DNA from: Asterias rubens
Lineage: Eukaryota
Direction: 5' to 3'
Assembly (NCBI RefSeq): GCF_902459465.1
Contig: NC_047066.1
Coordinates: forward strand, 6,697,047 to 6,761,046
Length of the DNA: 64,000 nt
This document shows, piece after piece, positions 25,211-60,440 of the stretch; position 1 is the first letter of the stretch; each line of letters begins with the position of its first letter. The position numbers and the translations under genes were made by a program. The notes beneath the pieces were generated by a model, which did not search any database, was not told the origin of the DNA, and saw nothing but the letters and a program-made list of their open reading frames with translations.

Positions 25211-28200
25211 ACTCAAATCACGACCAATTTTAAAATCCTCCACATTCTCATTTTTATTCATCACTTTTAATTTTTTTTTTTTTTCAATCACCATCTCTCA
25301 AAACAAGTATTTGGAAACTCTACATTATTGATGTCATGATTACAATTACAAAAGAAAGTCCAATTATTATCAAACAACCAAAATCCTTCTCCAACAAGAA
25401 ATAAATAAATGTACGTAAAGCCTTAAGACTACTTGGATTCTCTACAGCACTACAAAGACAGTACAAAAAGCATTTTTTAAATTTGTTTTTATCTTAAAAG
25501 ATGAAGTTTTGTAGCCACCTGAAACCCCAAAACCCCCATTCTTCTTGATATACTCTAAAACATCACATATAAACTGATTGTGCTCCAGTGCTTTTTCTCT
25601 CATAATTTGTTCATTATTTTTCTGTTAATTATCTATGACTATGATACAATAATTACAAATAGATTTTTTAACCCCAAACCACCTAAATGCATATTTCTTC
25701 CACAATTTGCAAAGTTTGTTTTAGAAATTCTTAGGCAAATTTACATATTCAAAAAAGAAAACCTGTTGATCGCCAGAGATGTTTTATTATTCTTTTTTTT
25801 TTTATGAAAACAAAATTTAAAATAACCAAAAACAAAACTTGAGTACAGACACAATGTCTACAACTTTAGCACAAATGTTTACGCCTTGAGAAAAATATAC
25901 AAAAATTGCAGCACACAAAAAATCTGGTCATTACTAGTGTACTTAACAATGTCCCTCTCTCTCACTCGCTCATAAAAACAAGAGGAAAAACCCTGGTAAA
26001 TTAAACTTAAATAAAAAAAGAAATCAAACAATAGGGCAATGGATAATTTGCATAAATAAATACAATATGATCGATAGCGGAGAATAACTTCTTCAAAAAC
26101 AATTTAAAAATTGTTTTTTTACTAAAATTACGGAATTGTACACTATGATTGCATTTGATATCTGCTATTATCGTAAAAAATGGTTTTGCAAAATTGGTGG
26201 CCAAATGTTGAAATTTCGTCTCCAGAAATCAAATGGGGAAAATATTTTGAGAGGGTTTTGTGTAATGGTTTTACTGAACGGGAACATTTCAGACACTACA
26301 TGGCAGTTAAAAAATGCAGTGATTCCTTTCTTCCACTCATTAACATCTTATTTCTCTGTCCAATCGATGCATTGTAGTAAAAAACAAAAACAAAGTAGAA
26401 ATTGTTTAACCTTGTTTTAAAAAAATATTAAATATATATCAACAAATCCACGAGAGTTCACCTGTGGTCATGCATGATATGGCATAAAGTGAGCAAAATG
26501 TACAATGAAAAACAGATACAAAATAACAACAAACATAAACATCGGTTGTTCATTGATAACAAAAAGAGTTGTTCGATTAATTTAGCGGTTTCAATTACAA
26601 TAAAAGATGAAATAGTTTATTGTGCATCTTGTAAACCAAATCCAAAGCTTGAGTCGAACCTTTGATTGGACTTTAGAAATAGTTTGCATGGCGACTTGAT
26701 GCCAGCAGTCGCCTTTATCAAATAAAACTGGGTACAATTAATCATAATTTGTTAAGAATACCGCTGGTATTTAGGGAACTCGGAGGGAAACCCTGTTGAA
26801 TCTCTAACAGAAAATTCTTGATTACAAGAACTGGGGTCCATTTCACAAAACTCTTCCTCACTTAGGATCGATCCTGGGCTTTAAGGCAGTGGACACTATT
26901 GGTATTTTACTTAAAATAATTATTAGCATAAAACCTCACTTGGTAACGACTAATGGGGAGAGGTTGATAGTATAAAACATTATGAGAAACGGCTTCCTCT
27001 TAAGTGACGTAGTTTTCGAGCAAGAAGTAATTTTCCACGAATTTGATTTCAAGACCTCAAGTTTAGAATTTGAGGTCTCGAAATCAAGCATCTGAAAGCA
27101 CACAACTTTGTGTGACAAGGGTGTTTTTTTCTTTCATAGTTATCCCGCAACTCCGACGACCAATCGAGCTCAAATTTTCACAGGTTTGTTATTTCATGCA
27201 TATGTTGAGATACACCAAGTGAGAAAAATGGTCTTTGACAATTACCAATAGTGTCCAGTGTCTTTAAGGACAAGTCCAAGCCATAGGTCGATCCTAAGAT
27301 TGTCCTAAAGGACGCGTCCAAAGTTAGGACGAGTTACCCTTATAGACCCTTTTGGAAACCACGGCATCAGCTCCAGATTCGGTTCAGGCTAGCTTGGCGC
27401 TCGCAGTTGTTTTGACAATTGCGCAAGCTTTGCGTACGCGCTCAGGGCTTCAGACCAGAGAACAGAGCCTGAAGCCAAATTCAAAGCCTAAGCCGTGGAT
27501 TCGAAAATTACCATAGTTGAAAGAACAAATATGGAGAGGAGGAGAATCAGATTATAGGCACTGTTTGTTTTAGTTATGTAATGCCATGGGGTTAGGGGTG
27601 GTTCCCAATTGTATTTGCACATTCTGCTCATTAAAAATTGACTTGGAACCAGACTACTTTGTGGCAACGTATTTTTAAAGCTAGGATATCTAGGGTTTAT
27701 TTAATCTACAGTACAAAAAAAAATGGTCCCTCACGGTTCAAAACATTGTCTCAATATTTGCATATTTTCAAGTCTTTTGAAAAAACTAAGTTGATTCTGC
27801 TGACTTTGGGTCATTTTTATTGGAAAAGCTTGGGTTAACTAAGTGGAAAATGTACATTGGAAGGTTTTTGTTGTTTTTTTGTTTTTGTTTTTTAAGCATA
27901 ATTACCCTTTTTTACAATACAATCATTTATTATTATTATTATTTTTTTTTACATCATAATTTAGTTTTGAAAAACACTACCTCACATTCCATCCAAAGAA
28001 TCCATAACGTTTTGGAAAAAGAAACAATTCTCAGTACGCACACACACATTACACGGAATGGATTAAACATAAAAACAAAATTGCCATCATTTCTGTATAA
28101 TAAACACATAATTCAAACTGATTTCCTTTTGTTTGCCGTTCGTATTATGTGTTGAATAAATATTGAAATAAACTACAATCTACATAGATATTTACAAAGA

Positions 28201-30477
28201 TATGATATATTAGTAAGATTTCTATGCTAGTACATCTGACAAAAATTACATTTAAAGAAGAAAATCTGTTTACCTACACGATGTGTGCTACCCAACTATA
28301 AACCGTCATCATATTGTTTGATGGTATTAACTCCATCACCCATTTCCAAATCATGAAACACATTTAGTGGTACTCGAACCCACACCACTCCGCATGCATA
28401 AATTACATGCACTGCATGAAAATTTCCGTCGTAACTTTTTTTTCCACAAATCTAAAACAGTTGATTTGAATTCATATGGGGCTTGGCACATATTGTGTAG
28501 ATAAGAGAATTCCAAAGTGATTTAAGTAGGTTTCTGAAAAAATGTGAGGGATTTTACAGCAAACGGGCAAAATAGTCTGGCCTGTTTTTTTTCTTTCTCT
28601 TAAGGACAATGCAGCATTGATTTCTTCTGGGCCGAACAAACTGAATGGTTTTATCGGCCGACATTCTTCCTCTCCTACACAGCAGCATTGGCAAGGAAGT
28701 ATTCAAAAACTGCAGCAAAAAAGTTTCCCCTTTTTAAAAAATTGCTATGAAAGTGTTCTCCCATCACACAAATGAATCTGGCCTCGCATTCCTACTTGGA
28801 CATTGCATTCCTACTTGGGCACCAAAGAAAACAAAATGGCTGACTGCATTCATATCACCAGAACACTTTTGCATCATCTTTGTTTTCCTCCCTTTCTTTC
28901 CCTCTCTCAAAAGAGATCCAACAAGACAATTCACAACACAACCACAAGCCAAAATACCATGGAAACCCAAAATATATTTCATTACTGGCAGACCGCGCAC
29001 AAAATCTAATGTCCACGAACAACGTTTCCGCCTCGCCCGAAAAAAACCATATACAAAGTTTAAAACTGTACAAATTATTCAAATGTCGGTAAAAACGTTG
29101 ACGTCTGTCTTTAATGCAGAGAAAATCTAAGTATGTCCTCTGTACATTATGGTCTTCATTTGCACGTTTTGTTAAAATTCATAATCACCTTTTTGTTATC
29201 TTAATTATTTTCTTTTTTTCAACGTCTTCACAAATGTCCCAGGAATACCACTGATGTCTTGTCTCAAACAACAATTGAACTTATGAGTCCATGATTGGAA
29301 TAAGAAAAGGCTGTCACAGTGGTAAGGGCATCTTGTCCCCGCCCCCCTCTTCCACCATAATCCATCCACCTTCAAAATAATCCATGCGATCAAGCTGAGG
29401 CTAGACTAGAAAAACAGTCTCCCCTTTTGTCATGTTTTGAGAAACAGTTATTGCTTACAGAGGGAATGAGACAAGACTAACCACAGCCTGATGAAAGTCT
29501 ATGGATTATTTTGAATGCCAATGCGGGACAATACAGTACTTCAGCATGGAAATTAGTAAACCCCCCTCTGGGACCAATGAGCCGGTCTATTCACAACCCT
29601 AGGAAAATTGATAACATAATCGATACATTGTTTATACGGGGGAGTACAAATGAATTGCAACTCCAAATGTGATGAGGAAATTTGTTGAAACACCATGACC
29701 AGAGATGTATTTTTGGAAGCTTTTTACTTGAATATATTTTCAAGGGGCTTCTGCAGTCAGTGCAGCGGATGTAATATTTTCAGCCCTTTTCCACTTTCAT
29801 TGAAAATTACACATACATATTGTATGAACAAACAATAATTTAGCATGCTAAGTACAAGAAGCCCTAATTGCATTAAAAGTCCACTGAAAAATGAAAAGGA
29901 AAAAAAAAGGCGATTGTAGTATAAAAGGCTATCATCACCTTTCATTATCAGACATCGCCCTAGTAAATACGACAAAATCAACTGGTTACAATCCTGTGGT
30001 TGAATTAAGTCCTTAAAAACAATTGCACCGTGAACATTGTATGAAAACAACAAATTTAAACCCCCCAAAAAACTTAACAATGAAGTATTCAACACTGCAT
30101 GAGATATGCCTCGACTCACACTCACACCCCCGTAACAACACAATGGTATCTTCCATGATAAGTGATAATACGCAATAATGGACTTCTCCATTCATTAGAG
30201 GTAGTTATTTGGGGAAAAAATAGCCTGCATATTATTCTTCCAAAAGTTTACGAGTTCTACAGTATCTCCACTGGACACTAAAATCAATTGTAATGACTGA
30301 ACTGGTCACTATGAAAAGAAAGAAAAACCCAAACATCAAAGCTAAAATGTGGATTCATGATGAGCCGCTACTTAGAAGTTTACTCTAAGGATTGTGTTAA
30401 CTAGAAATATAAGACTTCAATGGTTGTTATTCAAACATCACATTTGTATTCCCGTGGTACCTGTTCTGGTGGTTACT

Positions 30478-30860
30478 TAAAGGCAGTGGACACTATTGGT
30501 AATTGTCAAAGACTAGCCTTCACAGTTGGTGTATCTCAACATGTGCATAAAATAACAAACCTGTGAAAATTTGAGCTCAATCGGTCATCGAAGTTGCGAG
30601 ATAATAATGAAAGAAAAACACCCTTGTCACACGAAGTTGTGTGCGTTAGATGGTTGATTTCGAGACCTCAAGTTCTAAATCTGAGGTCTCGAAATCAAAT
30701 TCGTGGGAAATTACTTCTTTCTCAAAAACTATGGCACTTCAGAGGGCGCCGTTTCTCACAATGTTTTATACCATCAACCTCTCCCCATTACTCGTCACCA
30801 AGAAAGGTTTTATGCTAATAATTATTTTGAGTAATTACCAATAGTGTCCACTGCCTTTAA
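30478..30860. mobile_element. MITE family A, full-length copy (~385 bp; TIR aaggcagtggacactattggtaatt; internal hairpin gatttcgagacctcaagttctaaatctgaggtctcgaaatc)
   Basis: Additional full or near-full copies at about 26884-27270 (inverted), 36820-37203, 39988-40386, 43858-44232 (inverted), 46186-46570, 47322-47686, 49706-50070, 54626-55012 and 60057-60440. Truncated or deleted copies at 13705-13870, 38538-38840, 42040-42405, 42405-42485 and 43030-43318. Confidence 0.85.
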
Positions 30861-33800
30861 CATGCATCTAAGACCTTTTGAGAGGGTAACTTTAACATCT
30901 CTTATAGGGTAACTTTAAACGACTGGTGTCATAAAAGCAAACTGGCATAAGAAATAGTACTTCTTCAAACGGAAATCACTGATGGACAATAATTTGAAAG
31001 TCAAAACTGAAAGACTTTTTAAAAAAAACATCAAAAGATTTTCCTTCATAAACTTTCGAGGATCAGAGCTCAATTTCAAAGAGCTGCAGAAAATAATGCC
31101 TACACATTTTCTGCTAAGTAAAAAACAGCATGATACCAGTATAAGATTGTACATGTGACACACTATTTTGTCTGGTAACCCTATCCTGGTAAGAATAATT
31201 TTGTTGTGCTTAGCTAAAAGCAGCTCTATAAAATTGGGCCCGGAATAAGGTACTTTAATGACCCCCTCGCGCGCACAATGGGCATGTACCTCCACACACC
31301 TCCCTATAGACCTTTATCACAGTGTGGCCATCTTGATTTTACTCCATTCCAACTCATTGTAACCAAACTGAGGCTGGACGAAATAATAGTCTGGTGCCAT
31401 GTTTGAGCAATGAATGTTTGCATTCATACTGTTAGGGAAACAGGGAACATGACCAAGATGGTGACAGCGTGATAAATAAAGGTCTATACTAGTAGAACGA
31501 GGTTTAACATACATTACTTGTGCCTTGCCAATTAGTGCTTTTCGATATCTTCCAAGAAAATACTTATGGGTTCAGAAACTAAAGACGCTGGGTGGCCCTC
31601 ATATACATAGAAAGTAAATTCTGCTACGGCAAAGAATTCAGGCAATGGAATTTCCGTCGTAATTCAAGCAATGGGTACTCAAGTGGGGGGTGCTCAGCAC
31701 CAGTAATACTGCAACCACGCATCATCATTATTATTTCTCACATAATTATTTCAACTGAAATTGCCAAAAAAATTATTATTCGGCAGTAAATTTGGACTGA
31801 TTTCAGGTTTAAATTTTGATCATTAGATGTGCAGATAAAAACACAAACTCTTTTTAATTCGGGAATAATAAATTAAAGGCTCAAAACTACATTTAGTTTA
31901 CTCTACAACTTGACGTGCAAAAAACAATTCCCCAAAACTTAGCACCATCTTTGGCAAACGAAAAAAACTGTACAAAACTTCCAATCACGCTTTCCTCTCC
32001 CCCCCCCCCAAAAAAAAGACAATTGACTCTTCTGTAAGCACAAAGCAAGGGAGACTCCACTTTAGAACTGGGGGTGTTACAAAGACACCATTAATGTAAA
32101 ATAAATCCCCTCCAAAGAGCCAACTGCCGTTAAAAAAAAAAAAAACACTGGCAGATTACACAAATACCCTTAACTTGCATACTACAAAATATCTACCACC
32201 TTTTGAAAAAATGTTCTTAACTATACACTATTTGTTGGGATTATTATTATTTATACAACTCAAGCAACTGGGTCCAATTTCCATAGAGATGATACAAATT
32301 GCTAAGCAGATTCACACCATGCTTAGCGTTAACAGAATACCAGCTAGAATCTTATGCAATGCATATCTATTGTGACTGGTTTCCTGCTACCCCTTGGTTT
32401 CATAACCCCCAAAGGAGCTTAAAATACAGGTTTTCGATTGGCTGGATTTCCATAAATCTAATGCAGCTAAGGATCAATGCTTTTACTTGACAACACTCAC
32501 AGCTTTCAGTGTTGAGTTAATTGATCGATTCTGACGGATGCCAGACAGCTGTACACTAAACCAATCAAGAGTTACGAGCAACATCAATCTCTGCCTAAAC
32601 ACCCCTATAACAAACTGGACCCATTTGTTGGTGTACTTATGTTTTAAAATTGCAGCATTGGATATGACGGGTGACGTAATGCATCACGAGTAACGCATCA
32701 CAAGTAACAGGAATCACACAGTATTGCTCGTTACCGTCACACTCATCATCGTAATAAATAGGTTTAGGCTATGCATAGGGCTGGCTCCACTGAGCCTCAC
32801 CGCACCTCTGAGGTCCTCCAAGGACCAAGGGTAGGGTGGAAGGAGGGTCACAGAGGGAGTAGCAGAGGGGGGTATGGGCCCATTGCTCACCACACCCAAT
32901 GGTTACCCATTTGTGACTGGTTTAGTTACTCCCATGGTTGGGGAGTGGGTGGCAATTCCGAGGCACTAGCTACTGACGAGCTGTCAAAACGAAACAAAAC
33001 AAAAAAACAACGTAAATTTTAAAAGGAAGGGCAAGAAAGACAAATAAAAACAATAAGAACAATGTTTTGGTTGATCTTACACCAATGTGTATAAGCCATT
33101 GTATACTCGGTACTGTTTCTTTTAAAGGACTCAAGAAATTACTGAGTATACAGCAAAGATCATAAAGAACCAAAGGTGCAAGATGGGGAACTCTGCATTG
33201 GACGCCATTTCAGTAAGCAATCCCTATGATTAAACAATAGATCAGTGCAGACAATGACCAATTCTCCAAATGAAAAAACAAAACATTTGCTTTGTGAAAT
33301 GGCAACATGCATATATAATTTCACCTTCCAACAATAGATTCAGATTTGTAAGGGCCTGCTTTTGCCCAAAGACTAGCGACCCAAACCATAATGCTAAGAG
33401 GAATGGTCTGCCATTCATGTACTGCTCACAGGCAAACCTTCATGCCACGAGTCTATAAGCCTTTTTGAGGTATGGCGAACACAATGCTACAACACTATAA
33501 GGTTTGGGTAAATTTGTGTGTATACATTGTACACCCAAACCAAACAGTAAACTCCTACCACGTCCGCCGTACCTCAAAAACGCTTATTGCTCATTGCTGG
33601 GCCAGAAAGGCTAAAAACATTGTAGGGGTGCAGGCCTTGAACTTTGCTCTAGAAGGGGCACAGCAATTTTCCTCCAGTACGGGCACTTCTATGGGGAAGA
33701 TGTATAAGTGTATTGGAACCATGCAGAGGGTATAACAGCGAAAGCACAGGCAATAGACCGCTCCAGAAGGCTCCACCCACGACGCACGTGTGAGCAACAA

Positions 33801-34019
33801 CACGTAGGGCTCTCCAATGCCTTTCTGCACAACTCTGCCGCGCGCCAAGATATGCACACGCATGTCGGATCTTATTTGTCGGACCTTCGTTGCGTTTGTG
33901 ATTGGTCAATACGCAATGGGGCGGAGCTTAGTGGATTGGTCTATTGCTGTGGGTGTCAAGGGTTATTTCAAGCCCTGGGTATGAAAGGGGGGGGGCAGGG
34001 CGAGTGCTTGGACCAAGTC

Positions 34020-34117
34020 TCACCTTGCAAAACTCTTGAAGGCAGCAGACTGGGGGTTGATGCAAAGGGGTACGCTATTACCCTGGTGTCGGTCTGTAAT
34101 GAACGTGTGTAATGCCT
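34020..34117 (-). CDS. NLK: NLK putative terminal coding exon (EALHTFITDRHQGNSVPLCINPQSAAFKSFAR*), stop included
   Basis: VPLCINPQSAAFKSF is identical to human NLK. Acceptor tatttgcag|ag. In-frame TGA directly after …KSFAR. The human protein continues about 20 aa further, so an additional small 3' exon is possible; the junction gcaag|gtgaga also reads as a donor. Confidence 0.55.
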
Positions 34118-34709
34118 CTGCAAATACAAGTACCAAACAAAATATTAAGTCAAATTCATCAAATGTGTATTGACGGTCTGGCCTCTGTGGTATGACAGCA
34201 GCAACACATACACGAGTGGTAGCGTTAAAGCTCGGTGTTCAAATTATTTATTTACAATACATTAACAAAATACATTTTTAAAAAAGGGTGTCCAAAAGAC
34301 ACTAAGATGAAATAAGTAAAAAACCAAATGCTGTATGGTGCACACTATTTGAGTGGTTCCCTGGTCTATTTTACTTTGTACTTTATCTGTACAACTTTTA
34401 GCATCTCCTAAAAAAAATCCAAATAGAGTGTAGCAACCTTGCCACTTGTTCCAGCCTGTGAAACCAAACAAACTTCTCACAATACCATTTGCAGCATCTT
34501 TTAACCTGCGACAGTCGCTCAATGCGAAAACTGCATTCAAAACCAACTTTATCGCAAAGACTTAAACCCGGTTCAAACTTTCTGTTGCATCACAAAAGGA
34601 AAAACAGCATATACCAACTATGAACCGGGCTTTATACTACTCCACTGTCTCGTCAACGAATTTGACTTCATCAGGTGTGTGTTTTAACTTTTTGACATTC
34701 CAGCCTCAC

Positions 34710-34908
34710 CTTTGACCTCATGGACACTGCACAACCCATCCTCAAACTCCGAGGTGAACCTCTGAGGTGCTGCCGGCTCAAAGTCGGAGGTGTATTGCCG
34801 GCCGGCTGCCGTGTTATGACAACAGCGACACATACATGTGTGGTAGCGTAACCGCCCTTCCTCTAAGTAGGGGTGGGTGAGGGCATCGGTGCAAGAAATA
34901 CGTTTGTC
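34710..34908 (-). CDS. NLK: NLK exon (DKRISCTDALTHPYLEEGRLRYHTCMCRCCHNTAAGRQYTSDFEPAAPQRFTSEFEDGLCSVHEVK-)
   Basis: Matches human SKRISAKDALAHPYLDEGRLRYHTCMCKCCFSTSTGRVYTSDFEPVTNPKFDDTFEKNLSSVRQVK. Acceptor tcttcacag|gac and donor aaag|gtgagg. 199 nt, ends in phase 1. Confidence 0.85.
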
Positions 34909-35214
34909 CTGTGAAGACGAGAACAAATATAACGTCACAGAAGGAAAGGTTGGTGGCTACATGTCCAAATTGTTTAGAAGGGGGTTATGGGTGTGGGATT
35001 TGAAAGTTGTAGGGTAAAACAGAATGTTACATTTTAGAGATTTACAGACTCTCTACATAATTTCTATTGGATAGCTGAAGGTCTGGTCACAAGGAGCAAT
35101 TATGACAAGTTTGACTATTTCAAGAAAATGTAAAGGTACAGGAAGATCAGTGAAATATCCTGATACCAGAAAAAAATGTTGAAAAATCACGAGCTTGCAT
35201 TTCGATGAACTTGG

Positions 35215-35355
35215 GACAGGGGTGGATTTCACAAAGAGTTGAGACTATAGTCTTATCTCGAGTTAGGACGAGTAACTCCTCCTAACTTGGTTTTTAATAA
35301 CCCCAAAGAGTCATAGGACTAGTCCTAAGTTAGGACTCTCTTTGTGAATTCGACC
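35215..35355. mobile_element. MITE family C (~140 bp; TIR ggtggatttcacaaagag … ctctttgtgaattcgaccc; internal cctaagttaggac motifs). Other copies at about 63225-63375 and 27270-27350, plus a fragment at about 26850-26880.
   Basis: Inverted termini plus the shared internal tcctaagttaggacgagt. Confidence 0.65.
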
Positions 35356-35471
35356 CCTAGGCTCCGATGTCATTTCAATTTTCAAAAAGGCACTGGCAAA
35401 GCATCAGGAGCCCATAGAATCTCGGCTGTTGGATTCTGATGAAATTGCGACGATTGAGTTAAAATACGTAC

Positions 35472-35558
35472 TGGATTAAAGACGAGCATCCGACTCAAGA
35501 GATGGACAGCTTCATGAGTAGCCTGGGCAGACAGACTATATAATGCTGACAGGCAAGG
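35472..35558 (-). CDS. NLK: NLK exon (PCLSALYSLSAQATHEAVHLLSRMLVFNP)
   Basis: Matches human SLPVLYTLSSQATHEAVHLLCRMLVFDP. Acceptor tatccacag|cct and donor cca|gtacgt. Confidence 0.8.
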
Positions 35559-36819
35559 CTGTGGATACAAATAAATCAAACCATTGCATTCAAACAGTCT
35601 GGACTTTCAAGCTATGTAAAAAAAAAATACAATTGCTTTAATGTTGTCTATGAGATTTACAAATGAAAAATTCATCTTAACAAACCATTACATATACTAC
35701 AGCTATTGAGGCTTTCTTAACTAAAGCGATATTTACAACAACTGTTGTTAGGTAACATGGAAATATCTGTATTTGAAAGATGTTTTGTTTGGCTGCAGAT
35801 TGCGCCACAGCACCTTGAAAGCTGTTAGCTGTTACATGGTGTTATGTAAATAAATAGGTCTTAGATATTGAACATACCCATGCATACTTTAAAGACACAA
35901 TACTGAGCGCTTTGAGGTGCTCTTGTGTGTGAAAAACCACTATTTAGGCCTATGAACTGTGTATTTCTACTATAATTAGCACTATATTACAGATGGGCTA
36001 ACAAAGATACAATTAACAACACATTATAACATCAATAAAGATTAAATAGATGTTGAATTTGCATCGGGGATAAAAAATATTCATTTGGGTGTTTACCCAT
36101 AAGACCGATGTGTGTTAGCACTGTTTACTCAGTACCTTCCTGAGTCCTGTGAAAAAAATCACAGGCATATTTGCTCGGGTGGGATTCGAACCCACAACCT
36201 TTGCAATTCTAGAGCAGTGTCATACCAACTAGACCACCGAGATTGCCCGGTAGCTAGAGGCAGTTCGAGTCCTATGTTTTAGCAGCGGGTACTGCAAACG
36301 ATTTGATAGATGTTAAACTTGCATCAGGGATAAAGATATTCATTTGGTGAATGAGTATTCTATCCCGATGCAAATTAAACATCTAATAAAAAAGTCATTT
36401 CAAAGTCAAAAATCAATGAAATCGTACGCCAATTGTAAATTTTAGGCCTAAAAATAGTTTACACATTAAAACAAATATACAATTCTGGAGAAGAACAAGC
36501 AAAATGGTTAGGAAAATGGTAAGTTAACAAAAGGGAAATTTCCTCATGGACCTCAGTGAGGGCGCTGTTCGGTATTATGATTAAAGCGCTGTGATGCACT
36601 TTGCGTAAGAATGCTATACAAATAGTGCTATTATCAATATTATGAAAATTATCATGAAATGATAAAAAAACACTTGGTATGTACAATCATTTAAAATACA
36701 ACAGTTTTAACATTATACACAGATTATACAGCGTTCTCCCTTAACACTGGTCCGCTGGCCAAATGCTAGTTTATAACACCTGGGGTCCAGTCAGAATTCA
36801 CTCCAAGTGGTCCAGCTAC

Positions 36820-37203
36820 TTAAAGACACTGGACACTTTTGGTAATTGCCAAAGACAAGTCTTCTCACTTGGTGTATCTCAACATATGCATAATACAACA
36901 AACCTATGAAAATTTGAGCTTGATTGGTCGTCGGAGTTGCGAGATAACTATGAAAGAAAAAAACACCCTTGTCACATGAAGATGTGTGCTTTCAGATGCT
37001 TGATTTCGAGATCTCAAATTTTAAACCTGAGGTCTTGAAATCAAATTCGTGGAAAATTACTTCTTTCTCGAAAACTACGTCACTTCAGAGAGAGCCGTTT
37101 CTCACAATGTTTTATACTATCAACTATCCCCATTACTCGTTACCAAGTGAGGTTTTATGCTAACAATTATTTTGAGTAATTACCAATAGTGTCCACTGCC
37201 TTT
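36820..37203. mobile_element. MITE family A copy (NLK intron)
   Basis: TIRs and internal module identical in organisation to the 30478 copy. Confidence 0.85.
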
Positions 37204-37548: not shown

Positions 37549-37583
37549 AACACATCATCAGATTATTGACTTGTTGTACTTAC

Positions 37584-44297: not shown

Positions 44298-44591
<294 letters not shown>

Positions 44592-45820: not shown

Positions 45821-46084
<264 letters not shown>

Positions 46085-48643: not shown

Positions 48644-48644
<1 letters not shown>

Positions 48645-48675
<31 letters not shown>
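48645..48675. repeat. Homopolymer G31 (C31 on the NLK sense strand), intronic
   Basis: Counted directly from the sequence. Produces the PPPPPPPPPPP artefact ORF. Confidence 0.9.
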
Positions 48676-49049
48676 CTGGATCGGACCGGTAAGCTGAATG
48701 TCAGGGTAGGGTCTTTCTAATTCCCCGCCAGGCCCTGCAAGATTATCAATCATTTTCTCGTTTAAAAAGGAGCATTTAGGGAGGCATGGTATAGTAATGC
48801 CGAAAACAGTCAAGCAACGCATTTTGTTTAGTATTTCCTTCTTTTAAAAAAAAAATGGTTTTACGGACAGACCGACTACAGAGATAAATGTATGTCTCAG
48901 CGGTCTCACGAGATGTACTAGTCGTACAAATCCAGTAATGATTGGCAGCATAATGCATCCAGCACATTCGTAAAGCAGTTTGACATTTGGTCATCAAGAA
49001 TTTGTGACAGACTTTTCTATTAATATTATTTTTTTTCTTCAAAGGATAC

Positions 49050-49105
49050 ATCTCTTCAAAGAAGTCTAGATGAGGAGGTTGAAGAATATCCAGCGCTCTG
49101 AGGAC
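49050..49105 (-). CDS. NLK: NLK exon (VLRALDILQPPHLDFFEE-)
   Basis: Matches human VLSALDILQPPHIDYFEE. Acceptor ctttgcag|gtc and donor at|gtatcc. Confidence 0.8.
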
Positions 49106-52100
49106 CTGCAAAGAGACAAAAACAAATGGAAGATGTTTTTAAAAAAAATGTGTAAAACACGCTTATTTGTCAACAGTGTTCTGCACAGATCTAATTTCAC
49201 ACCCATGTAGTGTTTGATTCTCTTACGATTTTTGGGGTCGGTCCTCGAACAATTGATTTTATATCAACAATGAAAAGGCAAAAGCTGTTGGGTATAGACA
49301 AGTAGGAGCCAATGAGTCGTGCTTCATCTCCGAGGACTGCATCGAGGGCAATGAGCAGTGCAAGACAGTTCACTAACGTCAACGTCATGTATGTGTAGAG
49401 GAAACTTTTCTGCCTCTGAGTCCAACGAGAATGTGTGCACAGCATTCTTGCGTTCTAAAAGGTGTGCACACTGCAGCTCGGAGATAATATATACTAGCTT
49501 ATGAATTAGATGAGTGTATTGAATGATAAATACGAGGCACAATGGGGCATAAAAATACCCTCATGGACCGCTGGCTAATCAGTCATATTGGCACTCACCC
49601 AGTCACCCTTCAAACAGAACAAGTCTTAGTGCAACAAAACCATTGTACATTTATAATAATTTCTGAAGGTTTTCATTTTGTCATTCCAAACCTCCACCTT
49701 GAGTTAAAGGGAGGGTAAACGTTTGGTAATTGTCAAAGACCAGTCTTCTCACTTGGTGTATTCCAACATAAGCATAAAATAACAAACCTGTGATAATTTG
49801 GGCTCAATCGGTCATCGAAGTTGTGAGAAAATGATGAAAGAAAAAACACCCTTGTTGGACAAATTTGCGTGCTTTCAGATAGGAATAAAAGACTTCTAGC
49901 TAGAAGTCTTTTATTATTTTACCTCTTTCTCAAAAACTACGTTACTTCAGAGGGAGTCGTTTCCCACAATGTTTTATACTATCAAGAGCTCTCCAACACT
50001 CATTACCAAGTCAGTTTTTAAGTTAATATTTGTTTTGAGTAATTACCAAACATGTACCTTCCCTTTAAAGTCATTTCTGGTCCTGTAGAAAGTTCTTAAC
50101 ATCCAGACCTTAGGTCTAGCCACGATAGTCTGCAAGTCTAGCCCAATGTGGAAACATTTTATTGAGAAAGTAAGGGCCGACCTACATGTACATTAGGTTT
50201 ATGTGGATTTATAGACTTTCTACGCTACTTTTTTTGCTGATTTTTTTGAGGGCGAACAACAAAAATCAGAAATCAGATTTAAGTACGGTAGGAAGAATAT
50301 TATCCCTGATATATAAGACCCTTCGGAGACTACTATGTACCATATTTTCTTGCGTATAAGATCTGCCCTATCTGTCTTCCTACATACAGAAAACATCACT
50401 GTGGGTTATCTTACGCCTACGGTACGCCTTATCTGGTGTTGCTTGAAATCAAAGATGATGATTACTGTGTGAAATCTAGCATTATACTGTAAAATAATCC
50501 TTTCACTCCTACATGAGTGATCAGACCTGTTATCATTTTATTGAAATAAAACCTATAGCTGTTTATAGTAGTTTTTAGTTAAACAAGATTCTGGGGAACA
50601 GTGCATACAAGTAGCCAACCATGTTCGAGGTTCAAATAAGTGATAACCCTCGCTGTACATGGTTTTAACATACAACATGTAGCTTTAGCGAGTGTACCAG
50701 TGATAGTTATATTTCTTAATATTTCTAGGAAAATTTGTTTTAAAAGAGTATTTGTGTGCAGATGAGTAATCTTTAGTTCTCAAGTCGTTTATACAAATTT
50801 TTAAAAGCATAATGCATTACTATATTTCATCAATAGAGAGGCTTTTGTGACAGCGTATTCACAAGTTTTTGCATGTTTTGTAGCATGCAAAAATAGCGAG
50901 AACACAAAGACAAGCAGTCTGTTTATTGGAAATGATGGGACCATGTGCGCGCCGCGCTCATTTCAGGGCTCGCTTTCACAGAGCAATAAAATCCATCGCA
51001 AGACAAATTTTCAGTATCACCATAGTGATTTGCATTGTGACATCACACTGTACTAAGCAACTACGACTGATTTGCAGTTACGATCAATTTTAGCTCTTTG
51101 TGAAATCGGCCCCAGGTACCTCACATGGAGACCAAGGACAAAACAAAAATGGGAAAACAAAAGGACTCCATAGGGGCCTTCTAAAGATTGGGGTGCTCCA
51201 TGAAGAAATTTGAGTCTAAAGTCTATTGGAAACTGTTCAGTGCAGGGACAAAGGACAGAAACGAGGATGCATTTTTGTGTGGTGTGTTCTGTGTTGTGCA
51301 AAAAAGAAACATAAATTTGTTGTTGAACTTAAAAAACCCAATAAACCTTATTACAGCTCTACATACTTTTATATTCTTTTATATTCAGGAAACCAAAACT
51401 GTTCCAAACAAACTCAAAATCTTAAGATTCACAAATCCCTAAAGAACAGAATAGTTTTAAACTGGATAATTGGTATTAATCATCGTTCAACGTGAAGAGG
51501 AAAGCACACGTAGACTCCTCACCATTATTCAAAACCACAGAGCCTGTTAAAAAAAACTTACAACCCGCACAGTGCGTACTCGGCAGATGTGAATGAATTA
51601 TTCCTACTGGGAAATTGCCCACATCTGTGTAAGTCGTACTTGTCCCTACACCAGTGCACACACAGCATTGAATGCACCCCCAGGGCTGCCTACATAATGT
51701 GCTTCATGTGAACTGGCCATTCGTGTTTTTGTCCTTTTTTGATAAAATAAAATTCTTGTTGTTGAGTAAGAATATGAAATTGGAGTGCAACAAGAATTTT
51801 AATCGATATTGTGAGTGTATAATTTGCATTCGGAATTAAAACCAAATTGGAAGATAGCATTTCAATGCAAAACTTTTGGAAGATTTAAAAGTGTGTGTAC
51901 ATGTACTTGTAGTGACATTCAGTACATTCTAGGGCCTACAACAATAGGGACAATAGGTTGCTTTCACCATATAGCTCCATGCTTTCACAAAGGAAAACAA
52001 TTGGCTCTATGTTTGTCAGGTGAAAGAATTGAACGAAGGAGGGTCCATCCACAATTGGACTCAGTTGGACACTTGGGTAATTAGTTCACTCATCTGGGCC

Positions 52101-55100
52101 CAATTCCATAAAGCTGTTCTATTTGGCAGAAAATACTGCTTGACAAATTTGTCTTTGCTAGGTAAAAGTGGAGGGCACCAGCCACAAACAAGGCAAACTT
52201 AATGTTATTTAGGCTGGTAACCTGTTCCTGCTAAGCAATACTTTTCTGTGCTTGACAAGTTTTTGTGCTTACAGGCTTTATGAAATTTGGCCCTGCAACA
52301 GCCTGTGTTAGCATGCTTTTTGCTTTGCTGTCATACGCAATGTTGTAAGTAAAAACGCTGCTAAAAGACCATCTTCTTGCAGGCTATACAGAACTGGCCC
52401 TAGGGGATTGACTTTGGAAATGTTAAAGAAAATTTTGGTTGAATCAAACATGTACGCACGTGTACATGTATGCATTCAGCAATTTATGATAAATCTGGGT
52501 ATTGTGTATCACCCAAGTTGATCAGCCTTGGCTTTTATTCATTTACTTGGTTCAAAAACCAATTTTAGATATCGAGCGTCCTCGTGCAAGAATCTCCAAG
52601 GAACCACAATACGATAGTATTTATACTTCACGTAATAGCTCTAGGCCTTGGTCTATTTGTAGGCAACTAACCTTAATTGTTCTTGCATTGCAATCAGCAA
52701 AATATTTCCCAAAAAATCCAATATTTCGTCCACATTTGTAAATACACTAGTAAATACATTCCAGAATTTTTATTCTTACATGTATGTGCATCCGCAAAGA
52801 AAAATAGATTGCAAATTTTCACTATTAAACTGTACCTAAAATCAGCCCATCCTTCCACATCTCGAATAAATTTGGAATAAAAAAGCGTGGAAGCAGAAAA
52901 TTATTTTAAAAAATGACTTTGTAAAGAATGGAATGGGTGAAGTTCTCTCTGGATGATCATCTTCTGTACAAGCTTATTTTTTCTTGACCAAAATTGTCTT
53001 CCCAGGGCTGATACTTCACGGAGGCAACGAAGGGCGATTGTCTCCATGCCCCTTGGTCATTACCTCCGTGACATTGAAAGACAGTAGAAATTTACAATTT
53101 TCTCATCTAGGGTGCCCTTTACCAAGGAGAAAATGCCTTAGTGCCCTTGCCCTTTTCAAAATTTGAAGCATACAGGCCTACCTTCCATCAATTTGTGATT
53201 CAAACCAGGGCAAGAATGCATGCTTCTATCTAAGAGAGGGGAACACCATTTCAAGTGGGCAATCACTGGGAATCCAACATGGCCACTCGACACTCCGATG
53301 GTCCTCTTCAACCCAATACCCTCCTAATCCCTGACAAGAAAATGAAAATCTTCACTTTTCTACACCACTAACCCTTTCTCCTCACTTTTTTATCTCCCTA
53401 GACCCTTGCATGAGTATAGACACCTTTTAAGTCTTATATTTGAATACATTTAGGGGCCTACAGTAGGCGGCAAACAAAATGGCAATAAAGGTAGAGACCA
53501 GGTTACATCATTTGGTTATATGACTCTGTCAAAAAGTTAGTTATGCAATTAAACGATCTGAAAGCTTATTTTGTTATAAAGATGGTAATGGTAGTAAGCA
53601 TCCTGTGAAATTATTTTTTTCTGAATTGCCCCCCTGTTGATTAGAAATGAAAACATTTGAATCTGAATCACGATTCACTGTATTGAACAAGATTTTCAAA
53701 AACTTTCAGGGAATGATTTCGTAAATTTTGCACAGTGAAATATTTGGACTGAACATGTGTTGTGCATATTAAAGCCAGTGGACACTTTCGGTAAACAGTA
53801 TTGTCCAAGGCCCACATTTCGTGTATCACAACTTATATATAAAATAACAAACCTGTGAAAATTTAGGCTCAAACGGTCAAGGGAGTCGGGAGAAAATAAC
53901 GGGAAAACCCACCCTTGTTTTCGCGCGTTTCGCCGAGTCATGACAGGTGTTTACTATAAATCTGTAATTCTCGTTGTCCAGAATTGATAATTGTTCTAAT
54001 GTTTTCTCAAAAAGTAAAACATTTCATGGAATTATATTTCATGAGAAGTCTTTGACCATTACCTTCTGTAAACCCACTGTGAATTTTTTGTTTTCTGTTT
54101 CTGCTAATATTGAGTAGCAAAATGGTTATTTTCAGAAGCAACTGATCTATACATCTTGTGTAGTGCGATGTAATCAATCATTCAATGTGGTTTGTTTCTC
54201 ATGAGTTCTATTTTCTATGCCTTTTCACCACAAAAGTCAACACTACAATGTTGCCGGAATTCTGAGCAAACTGCCGTACGATAGTCCTTTAAAAAATATA
54301 TTTCATGTCCTTCCAAAGAAAATGACAACACTTAATTGCAGATCTAAGCAATTCAGCATTTTTATCTACTTTCTGTTTTCCGTGAAATCAAGACATTTAA
54401 TACCCCCCGGGATAACTGGCTCCTTCTTCCACCGAGAAGACCGAATGAACGCCAGGGGATATTTGGAGATGTTTTCCCAGAGAAACACCTCTCTATTCCA
54501 GTCAAATTTGTGGTGGGATGTTGGTTGGGGGTGGAGGCAGATGAATGAAGAGATTGGCTGTATCGAATAGAAAATCAATGTAATGAGCACAGTCCCAACG
54601 TCATAACTATACGTGTACTATGGTTTAAAGGCACTGGACACTATTGGTAATTGTCAAAGACCAGTCTTCTCACTTGCTGTATCTCAACAATGCATAAATA
54701 ACAAACCTGTGAAAATTTTAGCTCAATCGACGTCGAATTTTGCGAGATAATAATGAAAGAACAGAACACCCAAGTTTTATGTCACACGAAGCCGTGTATT
54801 TCAGATACTTGATTTCGAGACCTCAAAGTTTAATTCTGTGGTCTCGAAATAAAATTCGTGGAAAATTACTTCTTTCCTTGAAAACTTACTACGTTACTTC
54901 AGAGGAAGCCGTTTCTCAAAATGTTTAATAACCTCTCCCCATTACTCGTTACCAAGTAAGGTTTTATGACAATATTATTTTGAGTAATTGCCAATATTGT
55001 CCACTGCTTTAAAACATACTGTTCTAGTGAGGTCTGGGGGTGTGTTTACAAAATTGCGTAAAGGCAACTTTTCTGCCTCCAAATTTGAAAGTTTGTGCAC

Positions 55101-56304
55101 ACTGCAGCAGCTCAGAAACACTCATTACTAGCCTTTAAATTAGATGATTAGTGTCTTGAATGATAAATACGGGGCACAGTGTGGCATCAAATACCCTCAT
55201 GGACCACTGGCTAATACAGTCATAACACTCGCTCAGTAACTCCCAAACAGTGCTCTAGTGCAACATTGTGCAATTACATGTAGTTTCAAAAATAATAACA
55301 AAATTATTACTACATGGTTCTAACCTAGAATATCTCAAACACAACATGTGATGGATTGGAATTGTAAAACAGGTTGTCTGAATTTTTCTATGACATGTAA
55401 AAATAAATGAAAAAGGTTTTCAGTTTGTTAAGGATTCAATGAGACTAAAACCTCTGGCTAAAGCCACAGACCACTGCTACAGCTTGTGCCACTGCTAAGG
55501 GGTCACAGAGGTCAGTGACCTGTCAGTGACCTGTCAGCCTGAACACTGAAACCATGTGCAGGGGAACAGCAATACCGCAGCTACTAGCAGTGGAGACAAT
55601 AACAACTATTCAAGGAATTTTATGTTTATTTCTACGGCCTTTAATTAATCATTGAAACACAGAGGCAGGTAGAGCTGATTATAAAATTGTCTCTGTGTAC
55701 TCTGTGGCTCTAGTCTTTTGTTTCAGCCGTGCCTTAAAATATTTCAAAAGAAAGATGTATTTTACTAATTTAATTCCTTTTCCTACATGAAAGAAATTGC
55801 TTTGAATCGTCCAGAAGAAGCTTATGGACCCCAAGAGAGATTACATACACACAGTGTTGCCCTTTTAAATAGAAAAGTATTCATTTTCTGAGTTTTGTTT
55901 ACAGCAGCAACGGGCTACCAGTCGAAAAGGCACTTGATGAGCAGAATATTCAATTTCCTCCCACGATGGTTCCCCACCAATAGTTGTTGAATAAGATTTA
56001 AGTTTAGAGCAGCAGTCTCTGCTCTGGGACCCTACCCTGGGGTCCTTGGCATTACATATTATTACTTAATACTTCATCACACTGTAAGAAATAAAATGCA
56101 GCCTGCAAGTTAATTTAAGAGCATACATTGTAATTAGTTGTTACTATTGGTATGTGCATAACAGCATCATCCTGGTGCAAAGTTATCAATTTGTAATGCA
56201 TTGTAATTAGTTGTTTTCCTCATCAAAGCAATTTTTGTAGCCAAAACAGAAATCAAAATCGTCAAGAATAAATTTTCTGATTGACGCAAGCAGGAGGTAC
56301 TCAC

Positions 56305-56434
56305 ATTATCATGATTGAAGAAAAAGAGCATCTTAAGTTCCCGATAGACTCTCTTGCATGAGATGAGATTCTGGAAGACATGGGGCATCTTCTTAAGAGC
56401 CACCCGCTTACCGTCTCGCGGATCTGTCACCGAC
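56305..56434 (-). CDS. NLK: NLK exon. The exon's first base completes Trp, then SVTDPRDGKRVALKKMPHVFQNLISCKRVYRELKMLFFFNHDN.
   Basis: Near-identical to human NLK VTDPRDGKRVALKKMPNVFQNLVSCKRVFRELKMLCFFKHDN. Acceptor ctgtag|g and donor aat|gtgagt. 130 nt. Confidence 0.85.
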
Positions 56435-59400: not shown

Positions 59401-60056
59401 GAGGGTCTGAGGTAAATTTGTGCTGAGACCATACACCGATGGATGGCGTCCATGATGTGTACATCAAACACCACAGTCTAATCAACCAACATGGCTTCGA
59501 CCTGCCTGGCCTAGACGTGACCCTAAAAGCTGGGTCGAGGGTAGATGCGTTCATTCATATTGTTCATAGAAGCATCCACCGCAAGATGACCCGGAATTAG
59601 ATAGTGCTTCTCTGGTCCTTACGACATGGAACACAGTCCGAGCTAATTACGGACCAATATAGCTGAGTCAATGTTTGATTATCACCAAGCCTTGAGATGG
59701 AACTGTACTAGTCTGGTGCTATTGGGCTTCGTCGGTGCTTCATAAACGCAGATATCGAATTGTAATGATTAATCAGAGAAGTGGAGGACTGACTGAGTGG
59801 GGCGAAAATACTACACAAACATTTAATTATTTATTGTACCGGTACTGGTAAGGATTGGTTATCAATTACACTCAACTTGGATACAATTGGTTGGTGGTTT
59901 TTTTATGGAATACAGATTCATACGACTGGTGAACTTTGAATGGCCTAGATGTTTGGGGAACTGGTTCAATTAAAATTAAATGACTGTACCACATGTGTGG
60001 CCATGCTATGTACATGTATGTAAGATTCATCTTTATTTTGAACAAGCGGCAACAGT

Positions 60057-60440
60057 TAAAGGCAGTGGACACTATTGGTAATTGTCAAAGATTAGCCTTC
60101 ACAGTTGGGTATCTCAACATATGCATAAAATAACAAACCTGTGAAAATTTGAGCTCAATCGGTCATCGAACTTGCGAGATAATAATAAAAGAAAAAACAC
60201 CCATGTCACACGAAGTTGTGTGCGTTTAGATGGTTGATTTCGAGACCTCAAGTTCTAAATCTGAGGTCTCGAAATCAAATTCAGGGAAATCTACTTCTTT
60301 CTCGAAAACTACGTCACTTCAGAGGGAGCCGTTTCTCACAATTTTGTATACCATCAACCTCTCCCCATTACTCGTCACCAAGAAAGGTTTTATGCTAAAA
60401 ATTATTTTGAGTAATTACCAATAGTGTCCACTGCCTTTAA
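60057..60440. mobile_element. MITE family A copy
   Basis: Near-identical to the 30478 copy across its whole length. Confidence 0.85.

What the first reader, a model, noticed from the sequence alone, without database searches (positions are those of the whole stretch)
26884..60440. One MITE family saturates the NLK introns; two MITE families share an internal module
At least 14 copies of a ~385-bp MITE (TIR aaggcagtggacactattggtaatt) occur in 34 kb, about one per 2.4 kb. Almost all lie inside NLK introns, in both orientations, and several sit within 200 bp of exons (for example 46186-46570 against the exon at 45995). Family B (6395-6790 and 53765-54070) has unrelated TIRs but carries the same ~70-bp central module (ataacaaacctgtgaaaattt.g.tcaatcggtcatcg.agt.g.gagaaaataa). 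This suggests modular exchange between MITE lineages, or a common parental transposon. An 80-bp TIR-only derivative at 42405-42485 shows ongoing internal deletion.
Basis: seen in the sequence. Interest (0 to 1): 0.5.

Follow-up and report, generated by a model that had tools for sequence, protein, structure and literature searches.

The report
Abundant TTAA-inserting MITE in sea-star NLK
The repeats are real copies of a very abundant, non-coding cut-and-paste transposon (a TTAA-targeting MITE with Kolobok-type ends) in an Asterias sea-star genome; the two supposed families are diverged branches of one lineage, and nothing shows that NLK is a special target, so this is ordinary.

Summary
The window is an Asterias sea-star locus, probably A. 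rubens. It is 94-95% identical to the A. amurensis NLK locus, and NLK lies on the minus strand.

**Confirmed.** There are 14 copies of a ~379-bp MITE between 26,883 and 60,437, with a 24-bp perfect TIR. One copy is a 72-75-bp mini-element.

**Corrected.**
- The TSD is TTAA. Two young copies are absent from A. amurensis, which has a single intact TTAA at each site.
- The ends are 5'-AG...CT-3', the Kolobok signature rather than piggyBac.
- Family B's TIR is not unrelated: 18 of 24 bases match A's TIR. B also has TTAA flanks, and the shared module sits at the same offset (66-68 nt) in both families. Weak homology extends through the interior. A and B are therefore sister subfamilies, not products of module exchange.
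- The mini-element is orthologous to a full-length copy in A. amurensis, so it arose by a 299-bp deletion in place.
- Only 12 A copies lie within the NLK coding span. Only two are within 200 bp of an exon.
- With the B copy, 12 of 13 copies in that span share one orientation (p=0.003).

**Not supported.** NLK-specific enrichment is not shown. Other contigs carrying the element have about one further copy per 4.9 kb, against 2.8 kb here (p=0.16). Local copies do not cluster together. Orthologous copies diverge like neutral DNA.

This is an ordinary, low-interest finding.

The parts
26883..27264 (-). Full-length family-A copy of the older A2 type (5' end AGACACTGG). It lies 3' of the NLK stop codon and is shared with A. 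amurensis.
   Evidence: nhmmer 437 bits, model 1-381. Ortholog at L001 49741-50118, 95.5% identical. Coordinates include one base of each flanking TTAA.
30480..30857 (+). Full-length young A1 copy with perfect 24-bp TIRs. It is absent from A. amurensis and lies 3' of the NLK stop codon.
   Evidence: The empty site in L001 is ...ggttacTTAAcatgc.... It is 98% identical to an unlinked copy on contig L004.
36823..37202 (+). Full-length A2 copy in an NLK intron, shared with A. amurensis.
   Evidence: nhmmer 436 bits. Ortholog at L001 39888-40268, 92.9% identical.
38548..38838 (+). Diverged copy with internal deletions in an NLK intron, shared with A. amurensis.
   Evidence: nhmmer model 7-291, plus a 3' TIR hit at 38814-38838. 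The ortholog is 95.0% identical.
40001..40382 (+). Full-length A2 copy in an NLK intron, shared with A. amurensis.
   Evidence: nhmmer 415 bits. Ortholog at L001 36560-36939, 95.0% identical.
42075..42401 (+). Old, diverged copy truncated at the 5' end. It abuts the next element and is shared with A. amurensis.
   Evidence: nhmmer model 55-380. Ortholog at L001 34460-34816, 97.4% identical.
42403..42477 (+). Mini-element of 72-75 bp, made of model positions 1-36 joined to ~335-378. It arose by a 299-bp internal deletion in place from a full-length A1-type copy.
   Evidence: The orthologous site in A. amurensis (L001 34078-34456) holds a full 379-bp copy with identical flanks. The deletion junction has TA microhomology.
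43037..43315 (+). Copy truncated at the 5' end (model 100-381) in an NLK intron, partly shared with A. amurensis.
   Evidence: nhmmer 282 bits. The 3' part is orthologous to L001 33021-33117.
43859..44213 (-). The only copy inside the NLK span in the opposite orientation. It is truncated at the 5' end, lies ~115 bp from the exon at 44328-44447, and is shared with A. amurensis.
   Evidence: nhmmer model 35-379. The ortholog is 97.4% identical. Exon coordinates.
46186..46565 (+). Full-length copy ~191 bp from the exon at 45887-45994, shared with A. amurensis.
   Evidence: nhmmer 417 bits. The ortholog is 93.6% identical. Exon coordinates.
47326..47680 (+). Diverged relative with TIR AGGCACTGGACACCTAAGGTAG. 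It is shared with A. amurensis, where the 5' ~125 bp are deleted.
49708..50065 (+). Diverged relative with TIR AGGGAGGGTAAACGTTTGGTAATTG and TTAA on both sides. A. amurensis lacks it and has a 38-bp filler at the site.
53773..54101 (+). Family-B copy truncated at the 3' end (no 3' TIR or TSD). It is absent from A. amurensis.
54628..55010 (+). Full-length family-A copy in an NLK intron, shared with A. amurensis.
   Evidence: nhmmer 372 bits. Ortholog at L001 21826-22226, 97.1% identical.
60059..60437 (+). Full-length young A1 copy in the first NLK intron seen in the window. It is absent from A. amurensis.
   Evidence: The empty site in L001 is ...caacatTTAAtgc....
6398..6771 (+). Full-length family-B copy, AGCCATT...AATGGCT, flanked by TTAA on both sides. 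It lies outside NLK.
13488..13854 (+). Diverged relative in an intron of the LRWD1-like gene. The module is partly deleted.
   Evidence: nhmmer 193 bits, model 1-363. Sequence.
16860..17040 (-). The 5' half of another relative, with TIR AGTCACTGGACACCTTCGGTAAC. It carries the module.
   Evidence: nhmmer model 1-202. Sequence.
32929..56433 (-). Context: NLK coding exons for residues 62-435 of the Asterias NLK protein. Exon 1 lies beyond the window end.
   Evidence: tblastn with P0001. The gene occupies 10001-44293 in L001.

Best explanation
These are copies of a non-autonomous cut-and-paste DNA transposon (MITE) of an Asterias sea-star genome.

**Shown**
- The element is ~379 bp, running AGGCAGTGGACAC...GTGTCCACTGCCT, with 24-bp perfect TIRs in young copies.
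- It has no protein-family match.
- It inserts at TTAA and duplicates it.
- Several subfamilies coexist: A1, A2, B and at least three more diverged ones. All share homologous TIRs, TTAA targets and a collinear 5' region, so they descend from one ancestral element.
- Insertions accumulated over a long period. Nine to eleven copies predate the split of the two Asterias species. Two A1 copies, one B copy and possibly one more are specific to the window species.
- Once inserted, copies decay like neutral DNA. They also suffer truncations and internal deletions, such as the 299-bp deletion that made the mini-element.

**Inferred**
- The 5'-AG...CT-3' ends plus the TTAA duplication point to mobilisation in trans by a Kolobok-superfamily transposase encoded elsewhere in the genome.
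- The 60-100-bp region that stays most similar between subfamilies is a subterminal sequence that master copies need for transposition. That would explain its conservation without any exchange of modules.
- The 12:1 orientation bias inside NLK reflects removal of copies whose other strand interferes with NLK pre-mRNA processing.
- The high density reflects the family's abundance in gene and intron space generally, not a property of NLK.
For: - **Host and orthology.** The NLK protein is 99% identical to the Asterias NLK protein. The window is 94-95% identical to the A. amurensis locus L001. That assembly is identified as A. amurensis in PMC10625585.
- **Copies and TIR.**
- **TSD.** Empty sites with a single TTAA for copies 30480 and 60059. 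TTAA at 19 of 24 intact 5' ends and 16 of 22 intact 3' ends, across the window and 14 unlinked contigs.
- **Kolobok signature.** TTAA TSD with 5'-RR...YY-3' ends, unlike piggyBac (PMC9587614). All full-length Xenopus Kolobok elements end in AG, and T2-MITEs have TTAA plus AGGRR (PMC6004289).
- **One lineage.** A versus B similarity against shuffles: 5' TIR z=5.8, positions 36-60 z=6.9, module z=24, interior z=5.1. The module offset is 66-68 nt in full-length copies of both A and B, and the module never occurs alone. The B consensus comes from 4 copies with TTAA flanks.
- **Neutral decay.** Pooled orthologous copy identity is 95.3% over 3,081 aligned positions, the same as the flanking introns at 93-96%.
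- **Deletion in place.**
- **Non-coding.** Pfam finds nothing. Rfam gives only sub-threshold hairpin hits.
- **Independent insertions.** W_30480 is closer to an unlinked contig copy (98%) than to W_60059 (95%).
- **Abundance.** 143 read-through ORFs in metagenome assemblies. 22 copies in 43.7 kb across 14 unlinked contigs.
- **Orientation.** 12 of 13 copies share one orientation, binomial p=0.0034.
Against: - No autonomous partner was found or could be searched for. The Kolobok assignment rests only on the TSD and the terminal dinucleotides.
- The ends read AGGCA. They do not fit the AGGRR motif of the Xenopus T2-MITEs.
- The module is more similar between A and B (77-90%) than the TIRs are (~75%). 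This is unusual if the TIRs are the main transposase contact, and it leaves some room for recombination between subfamilies.
- TTAA cannot be formally separated from a TA duplication with AAGG...CCTT ends in a T-TA-A context, because both parse the same string.
- The density comparison uses contigs chosen because they carry a copy. It is not an unbiased genome sample.
- In A. amurensis this family fills 9.8% of the orthologous stretch, while all DNA transposons together fill 18.2% of the genome. Some enrichment over the genome average is therefore likely.
Confidence: 0.8

Rival explanations
1. Module exchange: families A and B are unrelated MITE lineages that acquired the same ~70-bp module. 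This would have happened by recombination or by a nested insertion. It is the reader's first reading.
For: The module is the best-conserved segment between A and B: z=24, and 77-90% identity against ~75% for the TIRs and 50-70% elsewhere.
Against: - The TIRs are homologous, with 18 of 24 bases matching. Both families have TTAA flanks and AG...CT ends.
- Similarity also covers positions 36-60 (z=6.9) and the interior (z=5.1).
- The module lies at the same offset and in the same orientation in both families. It is never found outside a TIR-bounded copy in the window.
- More diverged relatives (13488, 16860, 49708) carry it too.
Confidence: 0.07
2. NLK is a true insertion hotspot or sink. The gene would attract or retain this family far above the genomic norm, for example through local hopping from a resident source or through germline-open chromatin.
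For: - There are 14 copies in 37 kb, one per 2.6-2.8 kb. The first 26.9 kb of the window holds only 3 diverged relatives (p=0.03).
- The family fills 9.8-15% of the stretch, while all DNA transposons together make up 18.2% of the A. amurensis genome.
- Five more copies lie just upstream of NLK in A. amurensis.
Against: - Unlinked contigs carrying a copy have one further copy per 4.9 kb. The difference from NLK is not significant (p=0.155). One 4.2-kb contig holds 3 copies.
- Short-read assemblies under-represent clustered repeats, so the contig density is probably an underestimate.
- Local copies belong to several subfamilies and ages and are not each other's nearest relatives, which argues against local hopping.
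- The dense zone also covers DNA outside the coding span.
Confidence: 0.2
3. The element is a piggyBac-type MITE (TTAA target), or a Tc1/mariner-type MITE (TA target with AAGG...CCTT ends), rather than Kolobok-type.
For: TTAA duplication is also the piggyBac hallmark (PMC9587614). The empty-site strings can be parsed equally well as a TA duplication inside T-TA-A.
Against: - piggyBac ends are not 5'-RR...YY-3' (PMC9587614). From my own recollection they start with CC. Here every subfamily starts with AG.
- Under the TA reading, the invariant T before and A after the TA at most ends would have no explanation.
Confidence: 0.1
4. Host-exapted elements: the copies, or the shared module, serve NLK regulation and are kept by selection.
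For: There is a strong orientation bias. Two copies lie close to exons. The module is well conserved between subfamilies.
Against: - Orthologous copies differ between the two Asterias species as much as the flanking introns do (95.3% against 93-96%).
- Copies are truncated, internally deleted, or lost in one species.
- Within the family the module is no better conserved than the rest of the element.
- The NLK loci of Patiria and Acanthaster contain no copy.
Confidence: 0.05

Closest known systems
Kolobok-superfamily non-autonomous elements, especially the Xenopus T2-MITE family (Xmix and relatives)
   Same: - Both use a TTAA-specific target-site duplication.
- Both start 5'-AG and end CT-3' (RR...YY).
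- Both are a few hundred bp long, with TIRs and high copy number.
- Both have many coexisting subfamilies with related ends and long-lasting, recurrent activity (PMC6004289, PMC9587614).
   Different: - The ends read AGGCA, AGACA or AGCCA, not the T2 motif AGGRR.
- There is no sequence similarity to check against, and no autonomous partner is known.
- The host is an asteriid sea star.
- No match to KolobokP consensus sequences was found in the supplement of PMC9587614. The element lacks the long terminal direct repeat architecture of KolobokP.
piggyBac-type MITEs
   Same: TTAA target duplication and clean TTAA empty sites.
   Different: The terminal bases are AG...CT in every subfamily. They are not the piggyBac-type ends (PMC9587614 contrasts the two superfamilies on exactly this point).
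SINE families that share a conserved central domain (CORE, Deu, V and similar)
   Same: A short internal segment is kept more similar than its surroundings across otherwise diverged repeat families.
   Different: Here the families also share homologous ends and a collinear layout. The shared segment therefore reflects common descent of a DNA transposon, not a domain combined with different heads and tails. No tRNA or other Rfam match lies in the element.

Membership tests
MITE (non-autonomous class II element) | Terminal inverted repeats | tested here: met
   24-bp perfect TIR in copies 30480 and 60059. 18 TIR hits against 0 expected.
MITE (non-autonomous class II element) | Target-site duplication shown by an empty site | tested here: met
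   Two A1 insertions are absent from A. amurensis, which has a single TTAA at each site.
MITE (non-autonomous class II element) | Short, multi-copy and without coding capacity | tested here: met
   ~379 bp. More than 35 independent copies in the window and 15 other loci. No Pfam hit for the longest reading frame. The frame is interrupted in the window consensus and in family B (B frame read directly from the consensus).
Kolobok superfamily | [quoted passage not shown] | tested here: met
   Exact TTAA at 19 of 24 5' ends and 16 of 22 3' ends; the rest are 1-nt variants. Empty sites. Criterion from PMC9587614.
Kolobok superfamily | Ends 5'-RR...YY-3' (AG in full-length Xenopus elements) | tested here: met
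   All subfamilies begin with AG and end with CT. Criterion from PMC9587614 and PMC6004289.
Kolobok superfamily | An autonomous relative with the same ends that encodes a Kolobok DDE transposase (THAP and H2CH motifs) | not testable with these tools
   The Asterias genome cannot be searched by DNA here.
Xenopus T2-MITE family | Terminal motif TTAA + AGGRR | tested here: not met
   The ends are AGGCA (A1), AGACA (A2), AGCCA (B) and AGTCA (16860). Position 4 is C, not R. Motif from PMC6004289.
piggyBac superfamily | TTAA duplication | tested here: met
piggyBac superfamily | piggyBac-type ends, not RR...YY | tested here: not met
   The ends are AG...CT. PMC9587614 separates Kolobok from piggyBac on this feature.
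KolobokP (composite Kolobok lineage) | Long terminal direct repeats of ~450 bp or more with their own short TIRs, and TSDs of 3-5 bp | tested here: not met
   The element is a simple TIR element with a TTAA duplication. Four 10-12-mers from its TIR and module were not found in the published KolobokP consensus file, apart from one chance hit. Line wrapping in that file could hide a match.

The most novel reading that the evidence does not exclude
The collinear 60-100-bp region is kept more similar than the TIRs across subfamilies that have otherwise drifted apart. It could be a functional core, for example a subterminal transposase-binding or transposition-enhancing site. Such a core would define a long-lived clade of Kolobok-type MITEs in asteriid sea stars. 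The 12:1 orientation bias in NLK could likewise mark real selection against one strand in transcribed DNA. Together these would make the family a usable model for MITE-host interaction in echinoderms.
Probability: 0.2. Interest if true: 0.3.

Novelty: new member of a known kind. Interest (0 to 1): 0.15.

Why it matters
The finding matters little beyond annotation. It gives a clean consensus, the target site, a subfamily outline and a dated activity window for what is probably one of the most abundant DNA transposons of Asterias genomes. The family was active before and after the A. rubens / A. amurensis split.

This is useful for repeat masking, for insertion-polymorphism markers, and for spotting sea-star DNA and spurious ORFs in marine metagenome assemblies. 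It does not reveal a new mechanism or a special property of NLK.

Tried and rejected
- **Rfam.** A scan of the window and of one copy gave no family above threshold in the element, only sub-threshold hairpin matches to the central palindrome.
- **Pfam.** The longest MITE reading frame gave no hit. The 143 ORF 'homologues' are read-through translations whose N-termini are unrelated flanking sequence. They are not evidence of coding.
- **KolobokP consensus library.** A search of the supplement with TIR and module words found no relevant match.
- **Unbiased sample of Asterias loci.** I searched with the BED-finger ORF at 9413-9898. It returned only one hit, from the same locus, so the density comparison had to rely on contigs that carry a copy.
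- **Autonomous Kolobok partner.** This was not attempted.
- **Fuzzy-regex module scan.** It timed out and was replaced by blastn-short.
- **Correction.** The four hits there were first read as all lying on L004. The file held both L004 and L005, and each contig carries two.
- **Abutting pairs.** Pairs such as 42075/42403 and L004 3916/4300 were considered as a sign of self-targeting. I dropped this: flanking TTAAs are ordinary targets and the counts are small (judged by a rough estimate, not computed).
- **Pol III A and B boxes or a tRNA origin.** Considered and rejected, because there is no tRNA hit in the element.

Full report
**Host and gene context**

The concatenated exons are 99% identical to 'serine/threonine-protein kinase NLK-like [Asterias rubens]' (P0001). 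That exact protein has a second accession. It is also encoded in assembly GCA_032118995.1 (locus L001), which PMC10625585 identifies as Asterias amurensis.

The window aligns collinearly to L001 at 92-96% identity. It therefore comes from a close congener. A. rubens is the likely source, but that is an inference.

P0001 residues 62-435 map to 56,433-32,929. Exon 1 lies beyond the window end. The first 26.9 kb of the window holds other genes: a 2OG-oxygenase-like exon, a BED-finger ORF and an LRWD1-like gene convergent with NLK.

**The observation**

The 25-nt TIR has 18 hits at <=3 mismatches, against none in shuffles. blastn and an nhmmer profile built from seven full-length copies find 14 family-A copies between 26,883 and 60,437.

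- Seven are full length (378-383 bp).
- Four are truncated or internally deleted.
- Two belong to more diverged subfamilies (47326, 49708).
- One is a 72-75-bp mini-element.

Family A and its relatives account for about half of all DNA repeated within the window, 5.8 of 11.9 kb.

Two of the 14 copies (26883, 30480) lie 3' of the NLK stop codon, so 12 are within the coding span. Only two copies are within 200 bp of an exon (43859-44213 and 46186-46565).

**Target site and ends**

Both young copies (30480-30857 and 60059-60437) are absent from A. amurensis. There the sequence reads straight through a single TTAA, as in ...ggttacTTAAcatgc.... The element proper is therefore AGGCAG...CTGCCT, flanked by a duplicated TTAA.

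Across the window and the unlinked contigs, 19 of 24 intact 5' ends and 16 of 22 intact 3' ends have exact TTAA. The rest are one-base variants.

A TA duplication with AAGG...CCTT ends parses the same strings. That reading leaves the constant outer T and A unexplained.

**Superfamily**

Two superfamilies are described as TTAA-specific. Kolobok is distinguished from piggyBac by its 5'-RR...YY-3' ends (PMC9587614). All full-length Xenopus Kolobok elements end in AG, and T2-MITEs carry TTAA plus AGGRR (PMC6004289).

Every subfamily here starts with AG and ends with CT. The element therefore meets the two sequence criteria for Kolobok and fails the piggyBac end criterion. It does not fit the T2 motif, because position 4 is C.

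The decisive criterion is an autonomous partner encoding a Kolobok transposase. That could not be tested.

**Families A and B**

Family B has four copies in hand: window 6398-6771, window 53773-54101, L005 and L008. They are 89-91% alike. Its ends are AGCCATTGGACACTTTCGGTA...TACCGAAAGTGTCCAATGGCT, with TTAA on both sides.

Against A's AGGCAGTGGACACTATTGGTAATT, 18 of 24 bases match. Segment-wise local alignment against shuffles gave these scores:

| Segment | z-score |
|---|---|
| 5' TIR | 5.8 |
| Positions 36-60 | 6.9 |
| Module | 24 |
| Whole interior, 126-345 | 5.1 (0 of 500 shuffles reach it) |

The module starts 66-68 nt from the 5' end in full-length copies of both families. It always has the same orientation. 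In the window it never occurs outside a TIR-bounded copy. More distant relatives (13488, 16860, 49708) carry it too.

A and B are therefore diverged branches of one lineage, and the module is simply the slowest-changing part. Within family A the module is no better conserved than the rest of the element. This fits constraint acting on master copies rather than on inserted copies. That last step is inference.

The module is more similar between A and B than the TIRs are. This is a mild oddity and leaves a small place for recombination between subfamilies.

**History**

Nine copy pairs are clearly orthologous between the two species. Their pooled identity is 95.3% over 3,081 sites, the same as the surrounding introns. 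Inserted copies therefore evolve neutrally.

Window-specific insertions are the two A1 copies, the 3'-truncated B copy, and copy 49708. At the 49708 site A. amurensis has a 38-bp filler, so the polarity there is unresolved. No A. amurensis-specific family-A insertion occurs in the aligned 41 kb.

The two A1 copies are 96.5% identical by direct pairwise alignment. This fits insertion after the split.

The mini-element at 42403-42477 is orthologous to a full 379-bp A1-type copy in A. amurensis with identical flanks. The 299-bp gap has a TA microhomology at its junction. It is therefore a deletion in place, not a transposed derivative.

The NLK loci of Patiria and Acanthaster contain no copy.

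**Is NLK special?**

A search with the longest MITE reading frame found 143 'proteins'. All come from ENA and JGI metagenome assemblies. They are read-through ORFs with unrelated N-termini.

Five of their contigs, plus nine JGI contigs found with the TIR, give 43.7 kb carrying 22 copies. Beyond the copy that brought each contig in, this is one further copy per 4.9 kb. The NLK stretch has one per 2.8 kb, and the difference is not significant (one-sided p=0.155). One 4.2-kb contig holds three copies.

In A. amurensis five more copies lie upstream of the NLK start codon.

Pairwise identities show that local copies are not each other's nearest relatives. W_30480 is 98% identical to a copy on L004 but only 95% identical to W_60059 in the profile-based identity table. 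This argues against local hopping.

Two points cut the other way:

- The first 26.9 kb of the window has only three diverged relatives (p=0.03).
- The family fills 9.8% of the A. amurensis stretch, while all DNA transposons together make up 18.2% of that genome.

Some excess over the genome-wide average is therefore likely. It may simply reflect a general preference for introns and gene space. NLK-specific saturation is unproven.

**Orientation**

Inside the NLK span, 12 of 13 copies (12 A-type plus the B copy) share one orientation, opposite to the gene by the convention used here (p=0.0034). The five upstream copies in A. amurensis are mixed.

Both strands of the consensus carry splice-site-like strings, so the cause is not established. 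Selection against one strand in the transcript is the usual explanation for such a bias.

**Verdict**

This is a real but ordinary abundant MITE family. It is TTAA-targeting with Kolobok-type ends and was active around the Asterias speciation. The claims of 'unrelated TIRs / module exchange' and 'saturates NLK' do not.

Noticed in passing
window 36171-36243 (-) and 39020-39092 (+); repeat pair 36048-36336 / 38939-39223: A tRNA-Ser(AGA)-like sequence and a weaker tRNA hit lie inside a ~290-bp inverted pair of repeats (72% identity) in NLK introns. These are probably tRNA-derived SINE copies.
   Followed up: partly
window 63222-63391: A 170-bp insertion with its own inverted ends (CAGCCAATTTCAC... 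/ ...GTGAAATCAACGGCTG) is present in the window but absent from A. amurensis. It is a second, unrelated young MITE.
   Followed up: partly
window 34180-34224 (-): A degenerate duplicate of part of an NLK coding exon (RYHSCMCCCCHTTEA against RYHTCMCRCCHNTAA) lies between the exons at 34711-34908 and ~34023-34118. It could be an exon-duplication remnant or an alternative exon.
   Followed up: no
window 49708-50065 and L001 26625-26664: Where the window has a diverged MITE copy flanked by TTAA, A. amurensis has no copy. Instead it has 38 bp of unrelated filler right after the TTAA. This could be an excision footprint or an independent indel.
   Followed up: partly
window 9413-9898 (+): This is a BED zinc-finger ORF (Pfam zf-BED, E=5e-11), probably a hAT-derived remnant. 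Its only relative in the 5.8-billion-protein collection is a 99% identical ORF on a 1.5-kb ENA metagenome contig.
   Followed up: partly
window 5507-6121 (-), 12419-13489 (+): The neighbouring genes are a 2OG-Fe(II) oxygenase-like exon and an LRR exon of an LRWD1-like gene convergent with NLK. Acanthaster has the same arrangement, with LRWD1 downstream of NLK in L003.
   Followed up: partly
window 8314-8767, 17857-18161, 24690-24992: Tandem arrays of 121 bp x3.7, 50 bp x6.1 and 149 bp x2, at 94-96% matches.
   Followed up: no
window 21278-21397, 37369-37543, 47937-48109, 53003-53179: Another dispersed repeat family of ~180 bp (77-82% identity), unrelated to the MITE. Three of its four copies lie in NLK introns.
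   Followed up: no
protein collection (P0127-P0246); loci L004-L017: At least 143 'proteins' called in ENA and JGI marine metagenome assemblies are translations of this sea-star MITE plus flanking DNA. Sea-star DNA, perhaps from larvae or eDNA, is present in those assemblies, and MITE ORFs contaminate their gene calls.
   Followed up: partly
window 30654-30700 (consensus positions ~177-222): Family A carries a near-perfect central palindrome of ~19 bp per arm (GATTTCGAGACCTCA...TGAGGTCTCGAAATC). Family B lacks it and relative 13488 has only half of it. It gives only sub-threshold miRNA-hairpin hits in Rfam.
   Followed up: partly
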